Positions 50,951 through 56,002 of a stretch of 64,000 nt of DNA are shown here, in pieces; the stretch's first letter is position 1; each line of letters begins with the position of its first letter. Location: positions 1,504,001-1,568,000 of the forward strand of contig CAWGMQ010000006.1 in the NCBI GenBank assembly GCA_963823665.1. Direction: 5' to 3'. The position numbers and the translations under genes are program-made. The notes under the pieces are model-generated. The model did not search any database. It saw nothing but the letters and a program-made list of their open reading frames with translations, and was not told where the DNA came from. Source of the stretch: an uncultured Planctomycetota bacterium (GTDB lineage Bacteria; Planctomycetota; Planctomycetia; Isosphaerales; Isosphaeraceae).

Positions 50951-50954
50951 TTTC

Positions 50955-52620
50955 TCACCATTTCAGCGACAAGCGACTGTCGACGCCTTGCCCCAGTCCT
51001 TCGAGGTCCGATTTTCGCTCGTCGGGTGTCCTGGACTCGTCGAGGCACAGCCGAAGGGCGCTCGCCAGATCGCCCGCCCTGGCGCGCGCCGCGATGACCC
51101 GTTGCAGCGCGAATCGCTGATAGTTCTGGTCGTCGATCGACCGGATCGTCTTCAAGGCATCCGGAACGTGTCCGGCCATCGCCTGAATCTCGGCGAGGCT
51201 CGCGCTCGGACGCCGGCATATTCTGGCGGACGCCGGGTAATCTCGCGAGGTTCGGGTTGGGGCTGGGAGGATCCTTGACCGACAGACCGGCATCGGTCAG
51301 GGCTCGCGCGAATGTCGCCGTGGCGGCGGCGTGGTCGCCCGCCGCGGCCTGTGCCTGGGCGATGAGCGCGAGGCTTTCAGCCCTTCTGCCTGCCGTCGCC
51401 CGGCCCGAAATCTCTGACGCCGCCCGGACTGAAAGCAGCGCTCGGACCAGGTCGCCGCTGGCGACCTGGCCGCTGGCGATCTGGATATACCGGCCGTCGC
51501 GTCCCCGCATGTCCGGGTGTTCGCGCACGGAGCGAAATGCGTCGCGTAATGTTGCCCTGGCGCCGGCGGTATCGCCCGACTGAAGCTGCACGGTCGCGAT
51601 GCGGAGCAAGGCGTAAGGTTGGCCGTCTGTCATGTCGTAACCGGCGCGGGAAGGCCCTTCGCCGATCGCGATCGCCGATTGCTTCGCCGCCTCGAGATCA
51701 CCGAGGCGCGCCTGGGCGAGTGCCACATCACCGAGGCCGAAGTATGTCTGTTCGGCCGACTTCATCCTCGCGAGCCGCGTCGCGGCCTCTTGCACGAATC
51801 TTCGGGCGGCTTCTCGGTCGAGCGTCTTGGACGCAGCATCGGCGATTTTGCCAAGGACGTTTCCACCGTTCTCTCGCCCCACAGACCAACCGAACGCGGC
51901 TTCAAAGTCGCCGACGGCTGCCAGGGCTGCGGCAATCGTCGGGCGCACCCGTCACGGGCGTTGGCGATGTTGGTCGACGCGAAGAACTTCTTTGAGAACT
52001 CGAGCAGGAGCTCGACTGTCTTGTGTGCGTCTTCTCGGGCGCCGATCCCCACTTGCGTCTGCACGATTTCCGCCAGCGCGTCGACCACCGAGCGATCTTT
52101 CCCGAATTCGCCCGCGACCGCTGGCACCGCGCGGACGGCCCGCTCGAGCGTCGTGCGCGAGTCTTCCTTGAGGCCGCATTCGGCCTGCGCGTGGCCGATG
52201 CGCCAGAGGTTCCGCGGGCTAGCGTTGCCGCCGAAGCCTCCTTCGGCCTCTTTCGCAGCTTCGGCGAACGTGATGCGGGCTCCGTCCAGGTCGCCGGTTT
52301 TGGCCTGTGCAGTGGCGATTGCTGTCAAGGACCACGAGGACGGAACGGGCTTTGCCTTGACCAGCGCGACCGCCTCGCCTGATGCGCGACGGAGCAACTG
52401 GTGTAACTCTGCACGCGCGGGCAGCGCGACGAAGATGGGCGCGGACGGGCCGTTGGACGTCGGCGGATCGCGATGTTTCACGGCGGGCGCGGCGCTTTTC
52501 TGTGAGGCTGTTTGCGACGGAGCGATCGGGGTTCTCTTTCTGCGTCGCCTCAGAGGCGAGCGAAGCTGCTCCGGCAACGACCGAGCCGGCGAGCGCCAAC
52601 GCGACGACCGCGTCCGCCAT
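50955..52620 (-). CDS. Secreted helical-repeat (TPR-like) protein, several frameshifts, start uncertain
   Basis: Repeats AIATAQAKTGDLDGAR, DVALAQARLGDLEAAK, LIAQAQAAAGDHAAA spread over four frames. Confidence 0.6.
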
Positions 52621-52810
52621 CAGTTTCGTCCACCACACGGCTTGAACGCCCCTTCCGTCTGGGAGGCCACGGACGTCGAAACGGGTCCGGCTGGCGAGAA
52701 GATTGTCAAAGATACCGCGCACGATCGTGTCGAATGAAGGCCGTTTTCGGATGAGGCGGCCACGAGTCAGCCGTCCAATTGCGTTGCGAAACGTCGCGAC
52801 GTCTGCGATC

Positions 52811-52930
52811 TCAGGGATAGAGCCCCAGTAGCACCCATTGACGCCTCGCGGCGACATGGACCGGACGGTTCATCTGAAGAATGGCGACGGTAACTCGCCC
52901 CTCAGCCGTCAGTCCGATCAGGAGGCCAGA
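52811..52930 (-). pseudogene. C-terminal remnant of an HNH endonuclease
   Basis: Manual translation SGLLIGLTAEGRVTVAILQMNRPVHVAARRQWVLLGLYP*; no N-terminal CxxC/HNH core. Confidence 0.6.
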
Positions 52931-53272
52931 TGCAGTGCAGCAGTGCGCTCTCCCGCGCCGCGGATCTCGGCGTCGATGAGATGCTCCAACTCGGTCTGTT
53001 CATCGGCCGAGAGCGTCTCCCCGGCCTCGCGCAGAGCGCGATCGTGTCATGAGTTGTTCCAGTCGCTCGCATTGCTGGGAAGTGAAGAATCGATCCGGGC
53101 CCAGGTTGCGTACGATGATCAGGGTGGCGGCCTCCCGGTCGGGAAGTTGGTTCGTGAGTGCGTCGAGCGCCTCGCCGGCAGTGCGTCCCACAGCCTGATT
53201 TCGCGCCGTCACGGCCGGGAATGAAGTTCCGGTCTGTCCCGGCTGATCTCGATATATGACGACCTTGATCAT
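52918..53272 (-). CDS. Small conserved hypothetical protein (HNH-associated, antitoxin-like); frameshift near 53040
   Basis: GRTAGEALDALT, PDRFFTSQQ..RLEQLM, then EAGETLSADEQTELEHLIDAEIR. Confidence 0.6.
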
Positions 53273-53394
53273 GCACGCGCCCCAATTTCCATCCTCATCC
53301 CCTGATTGTTAGTTTACCGCGCTTTAGCTTGATCGCACAGCCTGCGCGGAAGCGGGACTGACGAAGCTGAGGCTGAGCACTCCCGAGGGAGTTT

Positions 53395-54024
53395 TCAGCC
53401 ACGTGCGTGCGGGGCCGCGTCATGCTTGGCCTTGTCGCGGCCGCCGAACTCCGCCGCGAGGAACTGACCCCACGCTTTCAAGGTGGGTGAAGTTCCGCGT
53501 TTCCGTTCCATCCCCATCTGTCCGTACGTCTGCTTCTTTCCTTCCGGCATGAAGATCGGATCCCAGTTGAATTTGTATTCGCCAAGGGCTTTCTCGGTGA
53601 CCTTGCCCCGGGTTTCGCCGCGGTGGACGCGGACGCGCAAGCCGTCGCAGTATCCGATCACCGAGAGGGCCGTTGCCTCTCGTGGCTCGCCGTCGCGCAG
53701 GAAACCGCACATCCGGTCTCCCACCGTTCTCCAGACGACCTCGCCGATACCGCCGAGCAAGCCGGGCGTGCGACCATCGCTCGAGCGCCAGGCGTCCAGG
53801 AGCAGACCGCCATGCTCCACCACGCACGGTCGCCTGACTTCCTTGTACGCCTCGAGAGCCTTGTGCCGCACAATGACTTCGATGTCGGGAAGCAAGAGAT
53901 CCTGGAGCACCCGCTTGATGGGGCAGATCTCGACTCCAAAGCGAGACTGGACGTCGTTCCGCTCGACGTAGTCGGCGACCTCGCTGATCTTGTACTGGTT
54001 GGCGGTTACGAAGTAGACCTTCAA
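53395..54024 (-). CDS. HAM1/ITPase-fold protein with degenerate active site (KomB-like)
   Basis: FVTANQYK, HKALEAY, PCVVEHGGL, GETRGKV, FNWDPIF, TYGQM, K-RGT-SPT; TTG start overlaps the SIR2 stop. Confidence 0.85.
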   Translation of the reverse strand: MKVYFVTANQYKISEVADYVERNDVQSRFGVEICPIKRVLQDLLLPDIEVIVRHKALEAYKEVRRPCVVEHGGLLLDAWRSSDGRTPGLLGGIGEVVWRTVGDRMCGFLRDGEPREATALSVIGYCDGLRVRVHRGETRGKVTEKALGEYKFNWDPIFMPEGKKQTYGQMGMERKRGTSPTLKAWGQFLAAEFGGRDKAKHDAAPHARG

Positions 54025-54830
54025 AGGAGTGACTCCAGAAACTCGCCGACGCTCTTGACGGGGTCGACCGGGTCCAATTCCAAAATGGAAACATCCCAGC
54101 GCGCCAGGAGCAGCCGCTGAATCTCACCGGTGCCGAAGGTTGTCAGGTAGGCACTCGGATAACGCTTCCCGTCGCGCCGTAACTGGAGCCTCAGTTTGTG
54201 CAATTTGTATAGCATATACCTTATGTTGATATCGCTCAAACTATAGCCGATGAAGAGAAGCGTCTTGCCGAGGATGTCGGCCCGCAGCTTGATGTCGATC
54301 GCGGATTCGAACTCGAGACGCTCGAAGAAACTCGATTCGGTGAGCACGAGGGTTGCATCGTCATCGAAGCTGCCGTGGAACTTCACCACGTGGGTTGCGT
54401 CGGGAGCCGACGCGGCGATGTCGTCGATGTTGGCGATCGTATGGCACCCGACGCCTTTCAGCTCGAATGCTCTCTCGATGATACGATCATAATTCGTTGT
54501 GTAGATGAGAGGCAATCCCATTTCAACCAGCGCGCCGTGCGCTCGAGATTTCTCGATCAGCTCGTTCGCCGGGTTGAACCGTCGGTCGAGCTCGCTGCGC
54601 AGCGGGCCGATTCCGCCCTTCTTGGCTACGTAATACTCGGCGAGCTGGCGCTCGTCGCCGTTCAGTTTGAAGACCTCAGGGTCATACCCGAGTTGATTGG
54701 CGATGATGCCGATCAGACTGGACCACGACGGCAGGCCCAGCGGCATCGACAGACCCGCGCCGATGAAGGGAATGAGTCGACGCTCTTCTCGAAGTCTGCG
54801 AAGCGTTTCTGACTCATCACCGAGTGACAC
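54021..54830 (-). CDS. Stand-alone SIR2-like NADase (KomC-like)
   Basis: PFIGAGLS..LPSW, IYTTNYD, VKFHGS, LLFIGYSLSDINI. Confidence 0.9.
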   Translation of the reverse strand: MSLGDESETLRRLREERRLIPFIGAGLSMPLGLPSWSSLIGIIANQLGYDPEVFKLNGDERQLAEYYVAKKGGIGPLRSELDRRFNPANELIEKSRAHGALVEMGLPLIYTTNYDRIIERAFELKGVGCHTIANIDDIAASAPDATHVVKFHGSFDDDATLVLTESSFFERLEFESAIDIKLRADILGKTLLFIGYSLSDINIRYMLYKLHKLRLQLRRDGKRYPSAYLTTFGTGEIQRLLLARWDVSILELDPVDPVKSVGEFLESLL

Positions 54831-55245
54831 TGCACGGTTTCCGCTGGAGGTAAAAACACAATTGCCCGTGTCGCCTCTCGCGAAGCGAGAGATGGCACGG
54901 GCAAAATCACGCCTCCGCCGGAATGCCGTTGAAGTGCTTTTGAGAACCCGCAGTTCAAGTGGGGAGTTGAGGGATGCTAAGAACGAAGTTCCTGGATGCC
55001 GCTCGAGGTCCCCGTCGGGTTAAATGTTGGTTCGCCAAAAGGACCACTTCTTATCGAACATGGCAGAGGCAGTGCCTGGTTAAACCAGACGGTGCTAATC
55101 TAACCGCAGCGCACGCGGTTGGCAATATGCCACCCGAAACGGTGCCAAAAATCACCGGAGCAGGCGCTGCATTGCGCACGATCGCAGAGCAGGAGGTTGG
55201 TCCTCCCGGGAGATTGCGAGAATACACCGCCGCCGGAGCTGCGCT

Positions 55246-56002
55246 TCACTCTGTGACATCACCGCGGAGCCGGCGGATCTGATCACGCAGCCGAGCGGCT
55301 TCTTCGTAGTCTTCGCGAACGACAGAGAGCTCGAGCTGCTGTTCCAGGCGTTCCAGCGGCTCCATCGGGCGTTCGCGCTTCACTTCGCGGCGCCAGTTGA
55401 TGAGCGACTTGAGCTCCGGCACATTCCTGCTCGCGATCCTCTTGCTTGTATTCGCGGAGAAACTTGCGAATCGCCTTGATGCCTGCGTCGATCAGCGCCA
55501 GCGCGGTCGGGTGATCGCTTTCCTTGAGTGCGATCGACGCTTTCGCCCGCGTGTACATCATCTGAACATAGGGGCGATACCTGTCAAATTCGATCTTGTC
55601 ACGCTGTCGCGCGGCGTACCGGCCCACAAACGCGAAGAGCCGGAGGTTGCGTAGCGTGTCGAGAGCCACGATTTCATATCGCTCAAGATGGAACGCGGAA
55701 AGATAGCGATGATAATACTGCAATCCCTCACGCATGAGCTGCGAGCAAACTTCGGGGCCGAGGGAGAAGGCGGAGCCGCGTTCGGCGGCTTCCTGGGCTT
55801 TGGCCTCATAAAAGTCGAGGAGCGATTCGTGTCCTTCGGGGCGTTCGCCGTCGGGGCGGCCGGTCGTCTCGAGCTGGATCAGGCCCAGGTCGATGCGCAT
55901 CTGGATTTTCTCGCGGCCGTCTTCTCCGGTGATGAAGCGGACCTGGAGCTGGTCCGGCTCGAACTCCCAGCCGTCGAGTAGGTGTTGTATGTCCTGGCTC
56001 AA
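55246..56002 (-). CDS. UvrB/UvrC-motif-containing protein; frameshift near 55420
   Basis: IQMRIDLGLIQLE..GRPDG; C-terminal LEQQLELSVVREDYEEAARLRDQI. Confidence 0.75.

What the first reader, a model, noticed from the sequence alone, without database searches (positions are those of the whole stretch)
53395..54830. SIR2 + degenerate HAM1/ITPase operon: Kongming-like nucleotide-sensing defence module with no deaminase
Seen: a 269-aa SIR2 protein with intact motifs (GAGLS, TTNYD, FHGS, GYSLSD) is coupled by a TTGA overlap to a 209-aa HAM1-fold protein. No deaminase gene lies on either side, and the pair sits beside HNH remnants in a small accessory island. Known: the Kongming system uses adenosine deaminase KomA to make dITP, which a HAM1-like KomB senses to switch on the Sir2 NADase KomC. 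Inference: this is a two-gene sensor-effector variant that may detect a non-canonical nucleotide made directly by the phage or by an unlinked host enzyme, and then deplete NAD+.
Basis: partly seen in the sequence, partly recalled or inferred. Interest (0 to 1): 0.88.

Follow-up and report, generated by a model that had tools for sequence, protein, structure and literature searches.

The report
Two-gene Kongming-type NAD-depleting defence module
These two overlapping genes are a compact relative of the published Kongming anti-phage system: a dead ITPase-like nucleotide sensor paired with an NAD-destroying SIR2 enzyme, but without the deaminase that makes the alarm nucleotide, so what triggers it is unknown.

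Summary
The two ORFs are real. SIR2 (54021-54830, minus strand) matches solved KomC over its full length (E 4.8e-71). The HAM1 protein (53395-54024, minus strand) matches solved KomB best (E 1.2e-24) and has KomB's hallmark, the catalytic Asp replaced by His. This is therefore a KomBC effector module of the Kongming system.

It belongs to a lineage with reversed gene order (komC then komB, 4-nt overlap). I found 27 such loci in at least six phyla. None has an adenosine-deaminase-like ORF in the flanks fetched, and no third gene is conserved.

In this genome the pair lies in a 3.9 kb insertion, absent from a congener, directly after a candidate 6S RNA gene. The only deaminase-family hit in the genome is a split RdrB-like (RADAR) gene on another contig.

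The sensor keeps the triphosphate-binding residues but lacks the equivalents of E. coli KomB Q141 and R168, which contact the base. A second solved KomBC shares this pocket type, so the ligand may still be dITP.

No HNH remnants were found. KomA-less KomBC modules are already noted in the Kongming paper, so novelty is moderate: a new variant of a known kind, function untested.

The parts
54021..54830 (-). komC-like gene: 269-aa SIR2-family NADase effector with a GTG start. H152 and D200 correspond to KomC H146 and D194.
   Evidence: Pfam SIR2_2 3.9e-24. PDB KomC 8zsf E 4.8e-71 over residues 17-267. N113, D115, H152 and D200 are invariant in 13 aligned clade members.
53395..54024 (-). komB-like gene: 209-aa catalytically dead HAM1/ITPase-fold nucleotide sensor with a TTG start. 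N9, K12, E15 and K55 are retained, and His71 replaces the catalytic Asp.
   Evidence: Pfam Ham1p_like 3.8e-23. The best PDB match is KomB 8zsg at 1.2e-24. AlphaFold model pLDDT 87.4. VIA-align Z 24.5 to KomB 9v0g_A and 24.9 to human ITPase.
54021..54024 (-). TTGA overlap of the komC stop codon and the komB start codon (translational coupling).
   Evidence: ORF coordinates. The same 4-nt overlap appears in at least 11 related loci with unambiguous starts.
50951..54857 (.). 3.9 kb insertion relative to a same-genus genome. It holds komC-komB, a frameshifted copy of a 120-aa family gene and a frameshifted TPR-like gene.
   Evidence: In blastn against the congener, L053 7525-10854 matches window 58187-54858 and L053 11255-19001 matches window 50950-43252. 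GC profile.
54908..55072 (-). Context: candidate 6S RNA gene directly upstream of komC on the same strand.
   Evidence: Rfam RF00013, 35 bits over the full-length model, E 2.5e-4, below the gathering score of 46.4. The stretch is 73-89% conserved in family genomes. A promoter-like site lies at 55125-55097.
54852..54904 (-). Context: terminator-like hairpin and T-run at the end of the 6S candidate. The synteny break with the congener lies here, and the komC start codon follows about 22 nt later.
   Evidence: Inverted repeat I2 at 54862-54904. Fold energy -32.9 kcal/mol, z -5.2. Sequence read.
52918..53272 (-). Context, not part of the module: a copy of a small protein family that is usually 120 aa long and has no Pfam match. 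Here it is cut to 90 aa by a frame change.
   Evidence: 184 homologues, mostly 120 aa. Sequence read. No homologue lies beside the cassette in other loci.
50955..52620 (-). Context, not part of the module: a TPR-like repeat gene read in three overlapping frames (frameshifts or assembly errors). The end coordinate is approximate.
   Evidence: Overlapping minus-strand ORFs. Weak TPR_8 match. Reading it as one broken gene is my inference from the translations.

Best explanation
The pair is a KomC-KomB effector module of the Kongming family, in a compact two-gene form. By homology with the solved KomBC complexes, the HAM1-like protein should bind a non-canonical purine (deoxy)nucleoside triphosphate without hydrolysing it, because His71 replaces the catalytic Asp. 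The signal would then pass to the SIR2 partner, which destroys NAD+ and stops the infected cell from supporting phage growth. The operon encodes no signal-making enzyme. The alarm nucleotide must therefore be produced in trans, by phage enzymes, by host nucleotide metabolism or by another defence system. Shown: the homology, the retained catalytic and binding residues, the architecture and its recurrence, and the insertion. Inferred: complex formation, NADase activity, nucleotide activation and a role in phage defence.
For: KomC-like protein: phmmer E 4.8e-71 to solved KomC, full length. H152, D200, E175 and R183 align with KomC H146, D194, E169 and R177, which Li et al. 2026 (sections 9, 11 and 12 read) showed to matter.

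KomB-like protein: the best PDB hit is KomB. In 26 intact clade members, K12, E15, K55, E70, H71, W154 and D155 are each present in 26 of 26. A separate housekeeping HAM1 with the normal Asp motif exists elsewhere in the genome at 9.2e-57.

Recurrence: of 42 loci returned by the search for related loci, 27 carry KomC at 61-80% identity with komB directly downstream. In one of them komB is cut by the contig end, and two carry frameshifts. Their taxa span Acidobacteriota, Bacteroidota, Gemmatimonadota, Pseudomonadota and Planctomycetota.

No deaminase: 0 of 42 loci, and nowhere in the 64 kb window, in a six-frame adenosine-deaminase HMM search. The positive controls scored 1.8e-40 and 2.5e-65. 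0 of 108 nearest-neighbour ORFs match PF00962. No neighbour cluster is shared by more than 5 loci, and those clusters are lineage synteny.

Horizontal acquisition: a 3.9 kb indel against the congener, low GC, the cassette DNA in only 1 of 20 relatives, and a KomB-like match at E<=1e-15 in 0 of 400 other Planctomycetota genomes sampled.

A 210-nt soil-metagenome contig with no differences spans 54811-55020, so the komC/6S junction is not an assembly artefact of this record alone. It may come from the same sample.
Against: Nothing has been measured: no NADase activity, no ligand, no phage phenotype.

This clade does not sit in recognisable defence islands. Only 2 of 92 nearest neighbours hit a PADLOC model at E<=1e-8, and both are generic (a methyltransferase and a Ser/Thr kinase). 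Most neighbours are housekeeping enzymes. No close relative was found in IMG/VR viral contigs or in the phage collection.

Five residues that contact dITP in E. coli KomB are not conserved. In 26 clade members, the R8 equivalent is Arg in 3, H11 is His in 1, T66 is Gly or Ser in all, Q141 is Gln in 0 and R168 is Arg in 0.

No sigma-70-like promoter lies between the 6S terminator-like hairpin and the start codon, so how the pair is expressed here is unclear.

Surrounding genes carry frameshifts. The region may be decaying, or the assembly may carry indel errors.
Confidence: 0.7

Rival explanations
1. The sensor has a changed ligand specificity. It detects a non-canonical nucleotide other than dITP, made directly by phages (for example a modified purine dNTP), so no host signal synthase is needed.
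For: No linked KomA in 27 loci. The triphosphate-binding and catalytic-site residues are invariant, while the base- and 2'-contact equivalents differ from E. coli KomB: Q141 is Asn in 17 of 26 (His 2, Ala 2, Ser 2, Leu 1, Gly 1, Arg 1), and R168 is never Arg. KomB proteins from komB-komC-order loci keep FQWDC and S-x-R. Among the 150 best cluster representatives, 34 have this second pocket type, with a variable residue at position 153. Li et al. 2026 suggest that KomB variants may recognise other nucleotides (discussion).
Against: A solved complex titled 'Helical structure of KomBC Complex' (9v0g) has a HAM1 subunit with the same pocket features: E-H-G, F-H-W-D-P and S-P in place of S-M-R. This pocket type is therefore already called KomB. 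Two Mol. Cell 2026 papers on KomBC, known to me only from their titles in a reference list, name dITP as the activator. I could not link 9v0g to either paper. Position 153 is only moderately variable, ranking 59th of 189 by entropy.
Confidence: 0.3
2. The signal comes from an unlinked host enzyme. In this genome that would be the RADAR-like RdrB adenosine deaminase, which would supply inosine nucleotides to KomBC during infection.
For: The only PF00962-type match in the 16.5 Mb genome (29.9 bits) lies in ORFs matching PADLOC RdrB at 6.5e-26 and 4e-12, next to AAA-ATPase ORFs with a weak RdrA match. Section 11 of the Kongming preprint reports KomBC modules genetically associated with RADAR-like systems.
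Against: The locus is on another contig. Both the RdrB-like and the RdrA-like reading frames are split. 14 of 27 cassette-bearing genomes have no PF00962 match over the cut-off, although these are incomplete MAGs. I did not search those genomes for RdrB.
Confidence: 0.1
3. The pair is not a phage-defence system. It would be a stress or nucleotide-pool-quality module, or a toxin-like NADase kept in check by the HAM1 partner.
For: Housekeeping neighbours and almost no defence genes nearby. Not seen on viral contigs or in phage genomes.
Against: Close full-length homology to an experimentally proven defence effector. A patchy, cross-phylum distribution with 61-80% identity. An insertion with foreign GC content. 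Frameshifted copies in relatives, as expected for dispensable accessory genes.
Confidence: 0.1
4. The locus is a decayed Kongming operon that lost komA and is now inert.
For: Neighbouring genes in the island are frameshifted. The same-family copy in L034 is broken in both genes.
Against: Both ORFs are intact here, with all catalytic residues. The two-gene form with reversed order recurs in 27 loci, and a long branch (SH-aLRT 95, quick tree only) separates it from the komA-komB-komC type. No komA remnant appears in any six-frame search.
Confidence: 0.05

Closest known systems
Kongming system KomA-KomB-KomC of Escherichia coli (Zeng et al., preprint 10.1101/2024.12.20.629578, sections 4, 9, 11 and 12 seen; structures 8zsf, 8zsg, 8zsh, 8zsi, 9xvc; Li et al. 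2026, PMC13454610)
   Same: A SIR2_2 NADase paired with a HAM1-fold protein whose catalytic Asp is His. The N-K-E nucleotide-binding residues are retained, as are KomC H146 and D194. The two genes are translationally coupled.
   Different: There is no komA. The gene order is komC then komB, not komA-komB-komC as in the canonical plasmid loci L063 and L064. KomB is roughly 30% identical (29% in the structural alignment; 32-35% to plasmid KomBs). The equivalents of R8, H11, T66, Q141 and R168 are replaced. The host is a soil planctomycete, and the locus is not in a defence island.
Second solved KomBC complex (PDB 9v0g series, 'Helical structure of KomBC Complex')
   Same: Its HAM1 subunit has the same pocket type as the window protein (E-H-G, F-x-W-D-P, S-P). 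phmmer E 5.2e-24 and structural Z 24.5.
   Different: Its SIR2 partner is more distant (E 4.1e-56) than E. coli KomC. I could not see its organism, operon or ligand, because the papers are not in the library.
KomA-less komB-komC pairs on Pantoea plasmids (for example NZ_CP017591.1, locus L065)
   Same: A two-gene pair with no adenosine deaminase within 5 kb.
   Different: The order is komB then komC. The pocket is of the E. coli type (FQWDC, S-N-R). KomC is 44% identical. The pair is plasmid-borne, next to an integrase and IS elements.
Thoeris ThsA (SIR2-SLOG NADase)
   Same: It is the best PADLOC hit for the SIR2 domain (2.9e-31), and it is an NAD+-depleting effector switched on by a nucleotide signal.
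   Different: The window protein has no SLOG sensor domain: it has 269 aa, and the match covers only profile positions 20-211 of 478. There is no TIR (ThsB) neighbour. Sensing is delegated to a separate HAM1 protein.

Membership tests
Kongming (KomABC) anti-phage system | KomC: SIR2-like (PF13289) NADase with the catalytic His (H146) and D194 | tested here: met
   PF13289 3.9e-24. Full-length match to KomC at E 4.8e-71, with H152 and D200 aligned to H146 and D194. Both residues are invariant in 13 clade members.
Kongming (KomABC) anti-phage system | KomB: HAM1-like (PF01725) protein with the catalytic Asp replaced by His and the nucleotide-binding N9, K12 and E15 kept | tested here: met
   PF01725 3.8e-23. 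The V-E-H-G-G-L motif has His71, and N9, K12 and E15 are present. H71, K12 and E15 are each present in 26 of 26 clade members.
Kongming (KomABC) anti-phage system | komB and komC adjacent in one operon | tested here: met
   4-nt overlap. The order is reversed (komC first) compared with canonical loci.
Kongming (KomABC) anti-phage system | KomA adenosine deaminase (PF00962) encoded in the operon | tested here: not met
   None in the 64 kb window or in 42 related loci (positive controls). 0 of 108 neighbour ORFs match. The genome has only one weak match, an RdrB-like ORF on another contig.
Kongming (KomABC) anti-phage system | KomB residues shown to contact dITP in E. coli KomB (R8, H11, K49, T66, F140, Q141, W142, R168) | tested here: not met
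   The K49, F140 and W142 equivalents are kept (K55, F152, W154). The others are A8, Y11, G72, N153 and T181. Across 26 clade members there is no Gln at 153 and no Arg at 181. The solved 9v0g KomB shares this pattern, so the feature may define only the E. coli subtype.
Kongming (KomABC) anti-phage system | dITP-triggered NADase activity, filament formation and phage protection | not testable with these tools
   These need biochemistry, cryo-EM and phage assays.
Defensive HAM1 clade of Zeng et al. | His at the catalytic Asp position, and tight association with a KomC-type SIR2 | tested here: met
   The definition is taken from section 11 of the preprint.
Defensive HAM1 clade of Zeng et al. | Frequent location near known defence systems, prophages or plasmids | tested here: not met
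   2 of 92 nearest neighbours in 27 loci hit PADLOC at E<=1e-8, and both hits are generic. Only the two nearest ORFs on each side were tested, so this is a narrow test.
Housekeeping ITPase / RdgB / HAM1 | Catalytic Asp in the E/D-D-x-G-L motif and the S-H-R base-binding motif | tested here: not met
   The window protein has E-H-G-G-L and S-P-T. The genome's own housekeeping copy has D-D-S-G-L and S-H-R.
Thoeris ThsA | SIR2 fused to a SLOG/STALD sensor domain, with a TIR-domain ThsB gene nearby | tested here: not met
   The protein has 269 aa and is SIR2 only. The PADLOC ThsA match covers profile positions 20-211 of 478. No TIR family appears among the ORFs scanned.

The most novel reading that the evidence does not exclude
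The komC-komB clade is a free-standing innate sensor. Its remodelled HAM1 pocket recognises a non-canonical nucleotide that phages themselves make (a modified or damaged purine dNTP), with no host signal synthase. This would be direct pattern recognition of a viral metabolite, wired to NAD+ depletion. Changes at the base-contact positions would tune different clade members to different phage nucleotides.
Probability: 0.25. Interest if true: 0.75.

Novelty: new variant of a known kind. Interest (0 to 1): 0.4.

Why it matters
Kongming showed that a base-modified nucleotide (dITP) can act as an immune second messenger. The open question left by that work is what activates the many KomBC modules that lack KomA. 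This locus belongs to a clean, recurrent two-gene lineage with no linked candidate signal-maker and a different base-contact pocket. That makes it a good test case for two questions: do such modules read a nucleotide made by the phage or by general host metabolism, and is the ligand still dITP? The practical value is limited. The host is an uncultured soil planctomycete, and the general point that KomA is dispensable or replaceable is already in print.

Tried and rejected
Co-folding of the two proteins with 13-row alignments gave no verdict (score 0.17, mark 0.32). I do not count it for or against binding.

HNH remnants: none found in 49 ORFs of 50 aa or more between 49.7 and 58.3 kb.

tRNA as integration site: ARAGORN found none in 50-58 kb.

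Flanking direct or inverted repeats marking a mobile element: only short, chance-like matches, apart from the terminator-like hairpin. DNA homology to the same-family copy is confined to the coding region, 53447-54814.

Viral carriage: only two distant SIR2 hits (22-25% identity) in IMG/VR, from two search patterns. No hit in the phage collection.

RNA evidence: no RNA holder was listed. Only short soil-metagenome DNA contigs hold parts of the stretch.

Provenance of PDB 9v0g: no paper in the library cites the code. A 9v0g-like representative (P0135) has no plasmid match and no source name.

The 90-aa downstream ORF as a third component: rejected. It is a truncated copy of a common 120-aa family and does not accompany the cassette elsewhere.

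The DUF4440/SnoaL-like gene directly after komB is seen in only three Gemmatimonadota loci and reads as lineage synteny.

The careful maximum-likelihood tree did not finish within the time limit. Only the quick tree is used. The two frameshifted KomC rows, L017 and L034, were left out before building it.

Full report
**The observation.** On the minus strand, ORF 54021-54830 encodes 269 aa and ORF 53395-54024 encodes 209 aa. The TTG start of the second overlaps the TGA stop of the first by four bases. The first ORF matches Pfam SIR2_2 (3.9e-24) and the second matches Ham1p_like (3.8e-23). PADLOC (2023 release, which predates Kongming) recognises only the SIR2 domain, with ThsA, LmuA and Dsr as best hits, and finds nothing for the HAM1 protein. 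NCBIfam gives sub-threshold ITPase and Dsr matches.

**Identity.** Against all PDB chain sequences, the SIR2 protein matches KomC of the Kongming system over its full length (8zsf, E 4.8e-71). A second KomC-type chain follows (9v0g_E, 4.1e-56). ThsA and DSR2 are far behind. The HAM1 protein's best hit is KomB (8zsg, 1.2e-24), then the 9v0g HAM1 chain (5.2e-24), ahead of true ITPases. An AlphaFold model built from a 13-row alignment (pLDDT 87.4) aligns to human ITPase (Z 24.9), 9v0g_A 'Helical structure of KomBC Complex' (Z 24.5), and 9xvc and 8zsg KomB (Z 23.2 and 21.9). These scores are too close to separate.

The Kongming preprint (10.1101/2024.12.20.629578; passages and section 11 read) defines defensive HAM1 proteins by two features. 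His replaces the catalytic Asp (KomB H65), and the binding residues N9, K12 and E15 are kept. The window protein has N9, K12, E15 and V-E-H71-G-G-L. KomC H146 and D194, which are essential according to the preprint and to Li et al. 2026 (PMC13454610, sections 9, 11 and 12 read), align with H152 and D200. The genome also has an ordinary housekeeping HAM1 with D-D-S-G-L and S-H-R elsewhere. The pair is therefore a KomBC-type module.

**No deaminase here.** Pfam on 49 ORFs between 49.7 and 58.3 kb found no adenosine deaminase and no HNH domain. I built an HMM from eight adenosine deaminases and ran it on six-frame translations of the whole window, all 42 related loci and one control locus. It hit only the control locus. 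The same HMM detects KomA in two canonical plasmid Kongming loci, at 1.8e-40 and 2.5e-65.

In the whole 16.46 Mb genome (12 contigs, 92% complete) PF00962 has one weak match, at 29.9 bits. That match lies in ORFs matching PADLOC RdrB (6.5e-26 and 4e-12), beside AAA-ATPase ORFs with a weak RdrA match. This is a RADAR-like locus on another contig, and its reading frames are split.

**Relatives.** The search for related loci returned 42 loci. Twenty-seven carry KomC at 61-80% identity, and all 27 have komB directly downstream:

- In L022 the contig ends 60 codons into komB.
- L034 has frameshifts in both genes.
- L017 has one frameshift in komC.
- At least 11 loci show the same 4-nt overlap.
- 14 of the 27 have the full 8 kb on both sides; 13 are cut by contig ends.

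The hosts are Acidobacteriota, Chitinophagaceae, Gemmatimonadota, Burkholderiales, a gammaproteobacterium and Planctomycetota. Neighbour proteins do not cluster across loci, except for lineage synteny in Gemmatimonadaceae and Chitinophagaceae.

None of the 108 nearest-neighbour ORFs (31 loci) is an adenosine deaminase. Most are ordinary metabolic genes. Only 2 of 92 neighbours in the 27 loci hit PADLOC at E<=1e-8, and both hits are generic. Of the 27 host genomes, 13 have a PF00962 gene over the cut-off somewhere and 14 have none; these are MAGs of unknown completeness.

**Other architectures.** Canonical plasmid loci read komA-komB-komC. Pantoea plasmids carry komB-komC without komA. A Mesorhizobium plasmid and four Bacillaceae chromosomes carry a KomC-like gene with no KomB. 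In a quick KomC tree (37 rows, with L017 and L034 left out as broken), a long branch with SH-aLRT 95 separates these other architectures from the komC-komB rows. The careful search did not finish.

**Genomic setting.** A same-genus genome is collinear on both sides but has about 400 nt where the window has 50951-54857. Besides komCB, the insertion holds a TPR-like gene read in three frames and a truncated copy of a common 120-aa family. GC drops to 0.57-0.59 over komCB.

The right-hand break falls at the end of a candidate 6S RNA gene (54908-55072). It scores 35 bits over the full-length Rfam model, which is below the gathering score, and it is 73-89% conserved across the family. It has a promoter-like site upstream and a strong hairpin with a T-run at its end. 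komC starts about 22 nt after the T-run with no promoter-like site in between, so expression by read-through is possible but untested.

The cassette DNA is found in 1 of 20 relatives (77% identity, coding region only). KomB-like proteins at E<=1e-15 are found in 0 of 400 other sampled Planctomycetota genomes. A 210-nt soil-metagenome contig identical to 54811-55020 bridges the junction. It may come from the same sample.

**The pocket.** Li et al. mapped the dITP contacts in E. coli KomB. In 26 intact clade members:

- The K49, W142 and D143 equivalents are invariant.
- The F140 equivalent is Phe in 17.
- The Q141 equivalent is Asn in 17 and never Gln.
- The R168 equivalent is never Arg.
- The H11 equivalent is His in 1, and the R8 equivalent is Arg in 3.

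KomB proteins from the komB-komC-order loci keep F-Q-W-D-C and S-x-R. A library-wide search found 1348 relatives at E<=0.001, of which 9 are at E<=1e-30. I sorted the best 150 by motif:

| Group | Count |
|---|---|
| Housekeeping-like (Asp at the catalytic position) | 54 |
| E. coli pocket type | 50 |
| Window pocket type (E-H-G/A, no Arg) | 34 |
| Partial or unclear | 12 |

This sorting rests on one alignment and is approximate. It may correspond to the 'two major clades' of defensive HAM1s mentioned in the preprint, but I could not see that figure. The solved 9v0g KomB shows the window's pocket type. A different ligand is therefore possible but far from shown.

**Verdict.** It is best filed as a compact, KomA-less, reversed-order variant of the Kongming effector module. 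The mechanism is inferred by homology, and the source and identity of the trigger nucleotide remain open. Published text already states that KomBC persists where KomA is missing or replaced, so the surprise is moderate. The scan has noted Kongming copies and one other remodelled-pocket KomB in other genomes, but nothing similar in sequence to this one.

Noticed in passing
window 54908-55072 (-): Candidate 6S (SsrS) RNA gene. It scores 35 bits over the full-length Rfam model, below the gathering score of 46.4, and is conserved at 73-89% identity in many genomes of the family. A promoter-like site lies upstream and a strong terminator-like hairpin at its end. The komCB insertion begins right after it.
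   Followed up: partly
window 55246-56002 (-): A gene for a protein with a C-terminal UvrB/UvrC motif is split by a frameshift into 239-aa and 58-aa ORFs. The same-genus genome has it intact at 251 aa (L053 9710-10465). This is either a real mutation or an assembly indel.
   Followed up: partly
window 50955-52620 (-), approximate: A TPR-like repeat protein gene inside the insertion reads through three overlapping frames, so it has several frameshifts.
   Followed up: no
window 52918-53272 (-): A copy of a small protein family (usually 120 aa, no Pfam match, 184 homologues, some named from Isosphaerales or Isosphaeraceae). It is cut to 90 aa by a frame change near its C-terminus. Paralogous stretches exist elsewhere in related genomes.
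   Followed up: partly
L046 4985-10348 (G000 contig C11, about 661-666.3 kb): A RADAR-like locus. ORFs match RdrB (788 aa plus 117 aa, split), preceded by AAA-ATPase ORFs (505 aa plus 375 aa) with a weak RdrA match. It holds the only adenosine-deaminase-family hit in the genome.
   Followed up: partly
L030-L033 (Bacillaceae chromosomes) and L066 (Mesorhizobium plasmid): KomC-like SIR2 genes (44-47% identical to the window's) with no KomB-like ORF in the flanks fetched (8 kb for L030-L033, 5 kb for L066). In Bacillaceae they sit between a MerR-family gene and a phasin-like gene. These look like orphan effectors.
   Followed up: partly
L065 (Pantoea stewartii plasmid NZ_CP017591.1): A komB-komC pair with no KomA within 5 kb, next to an integrase and IS66 elements. 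95 Pantoea plasmid records matched KomC, but only this one was inspected.
   Followed up: partly
whole genome G000 and congener G001: The genomes are very large for Planctomycetota: 16.46 Mb in 12 contigs, and about 16.1 Mb.
   Followed up: no
proteins P0149, P0165, P0166, P0186, P0192, P0220, P0256: HAM1 relatives of 455-482 aa, probably HAM1-SIR2 fusions of the kind the Kongming preprint calls candidate type 4. The SIR2 part was not checked.
   Followed up: no
L020 9328-9948, L024 1448-2068, L029 6217-6837: A DUF4440/SnoaL-like gene lies directly after komB, touching or overlapping it, in three Gemmatimonadota loci. It is probably lineage synteny.
   Followed up: no
window 51410-51481 (-): A weak Rfam RT-15 match (26.6 bits against a gathering score of 82), inside the TPR-like gene. 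It is probably chance.
   Followed up: no
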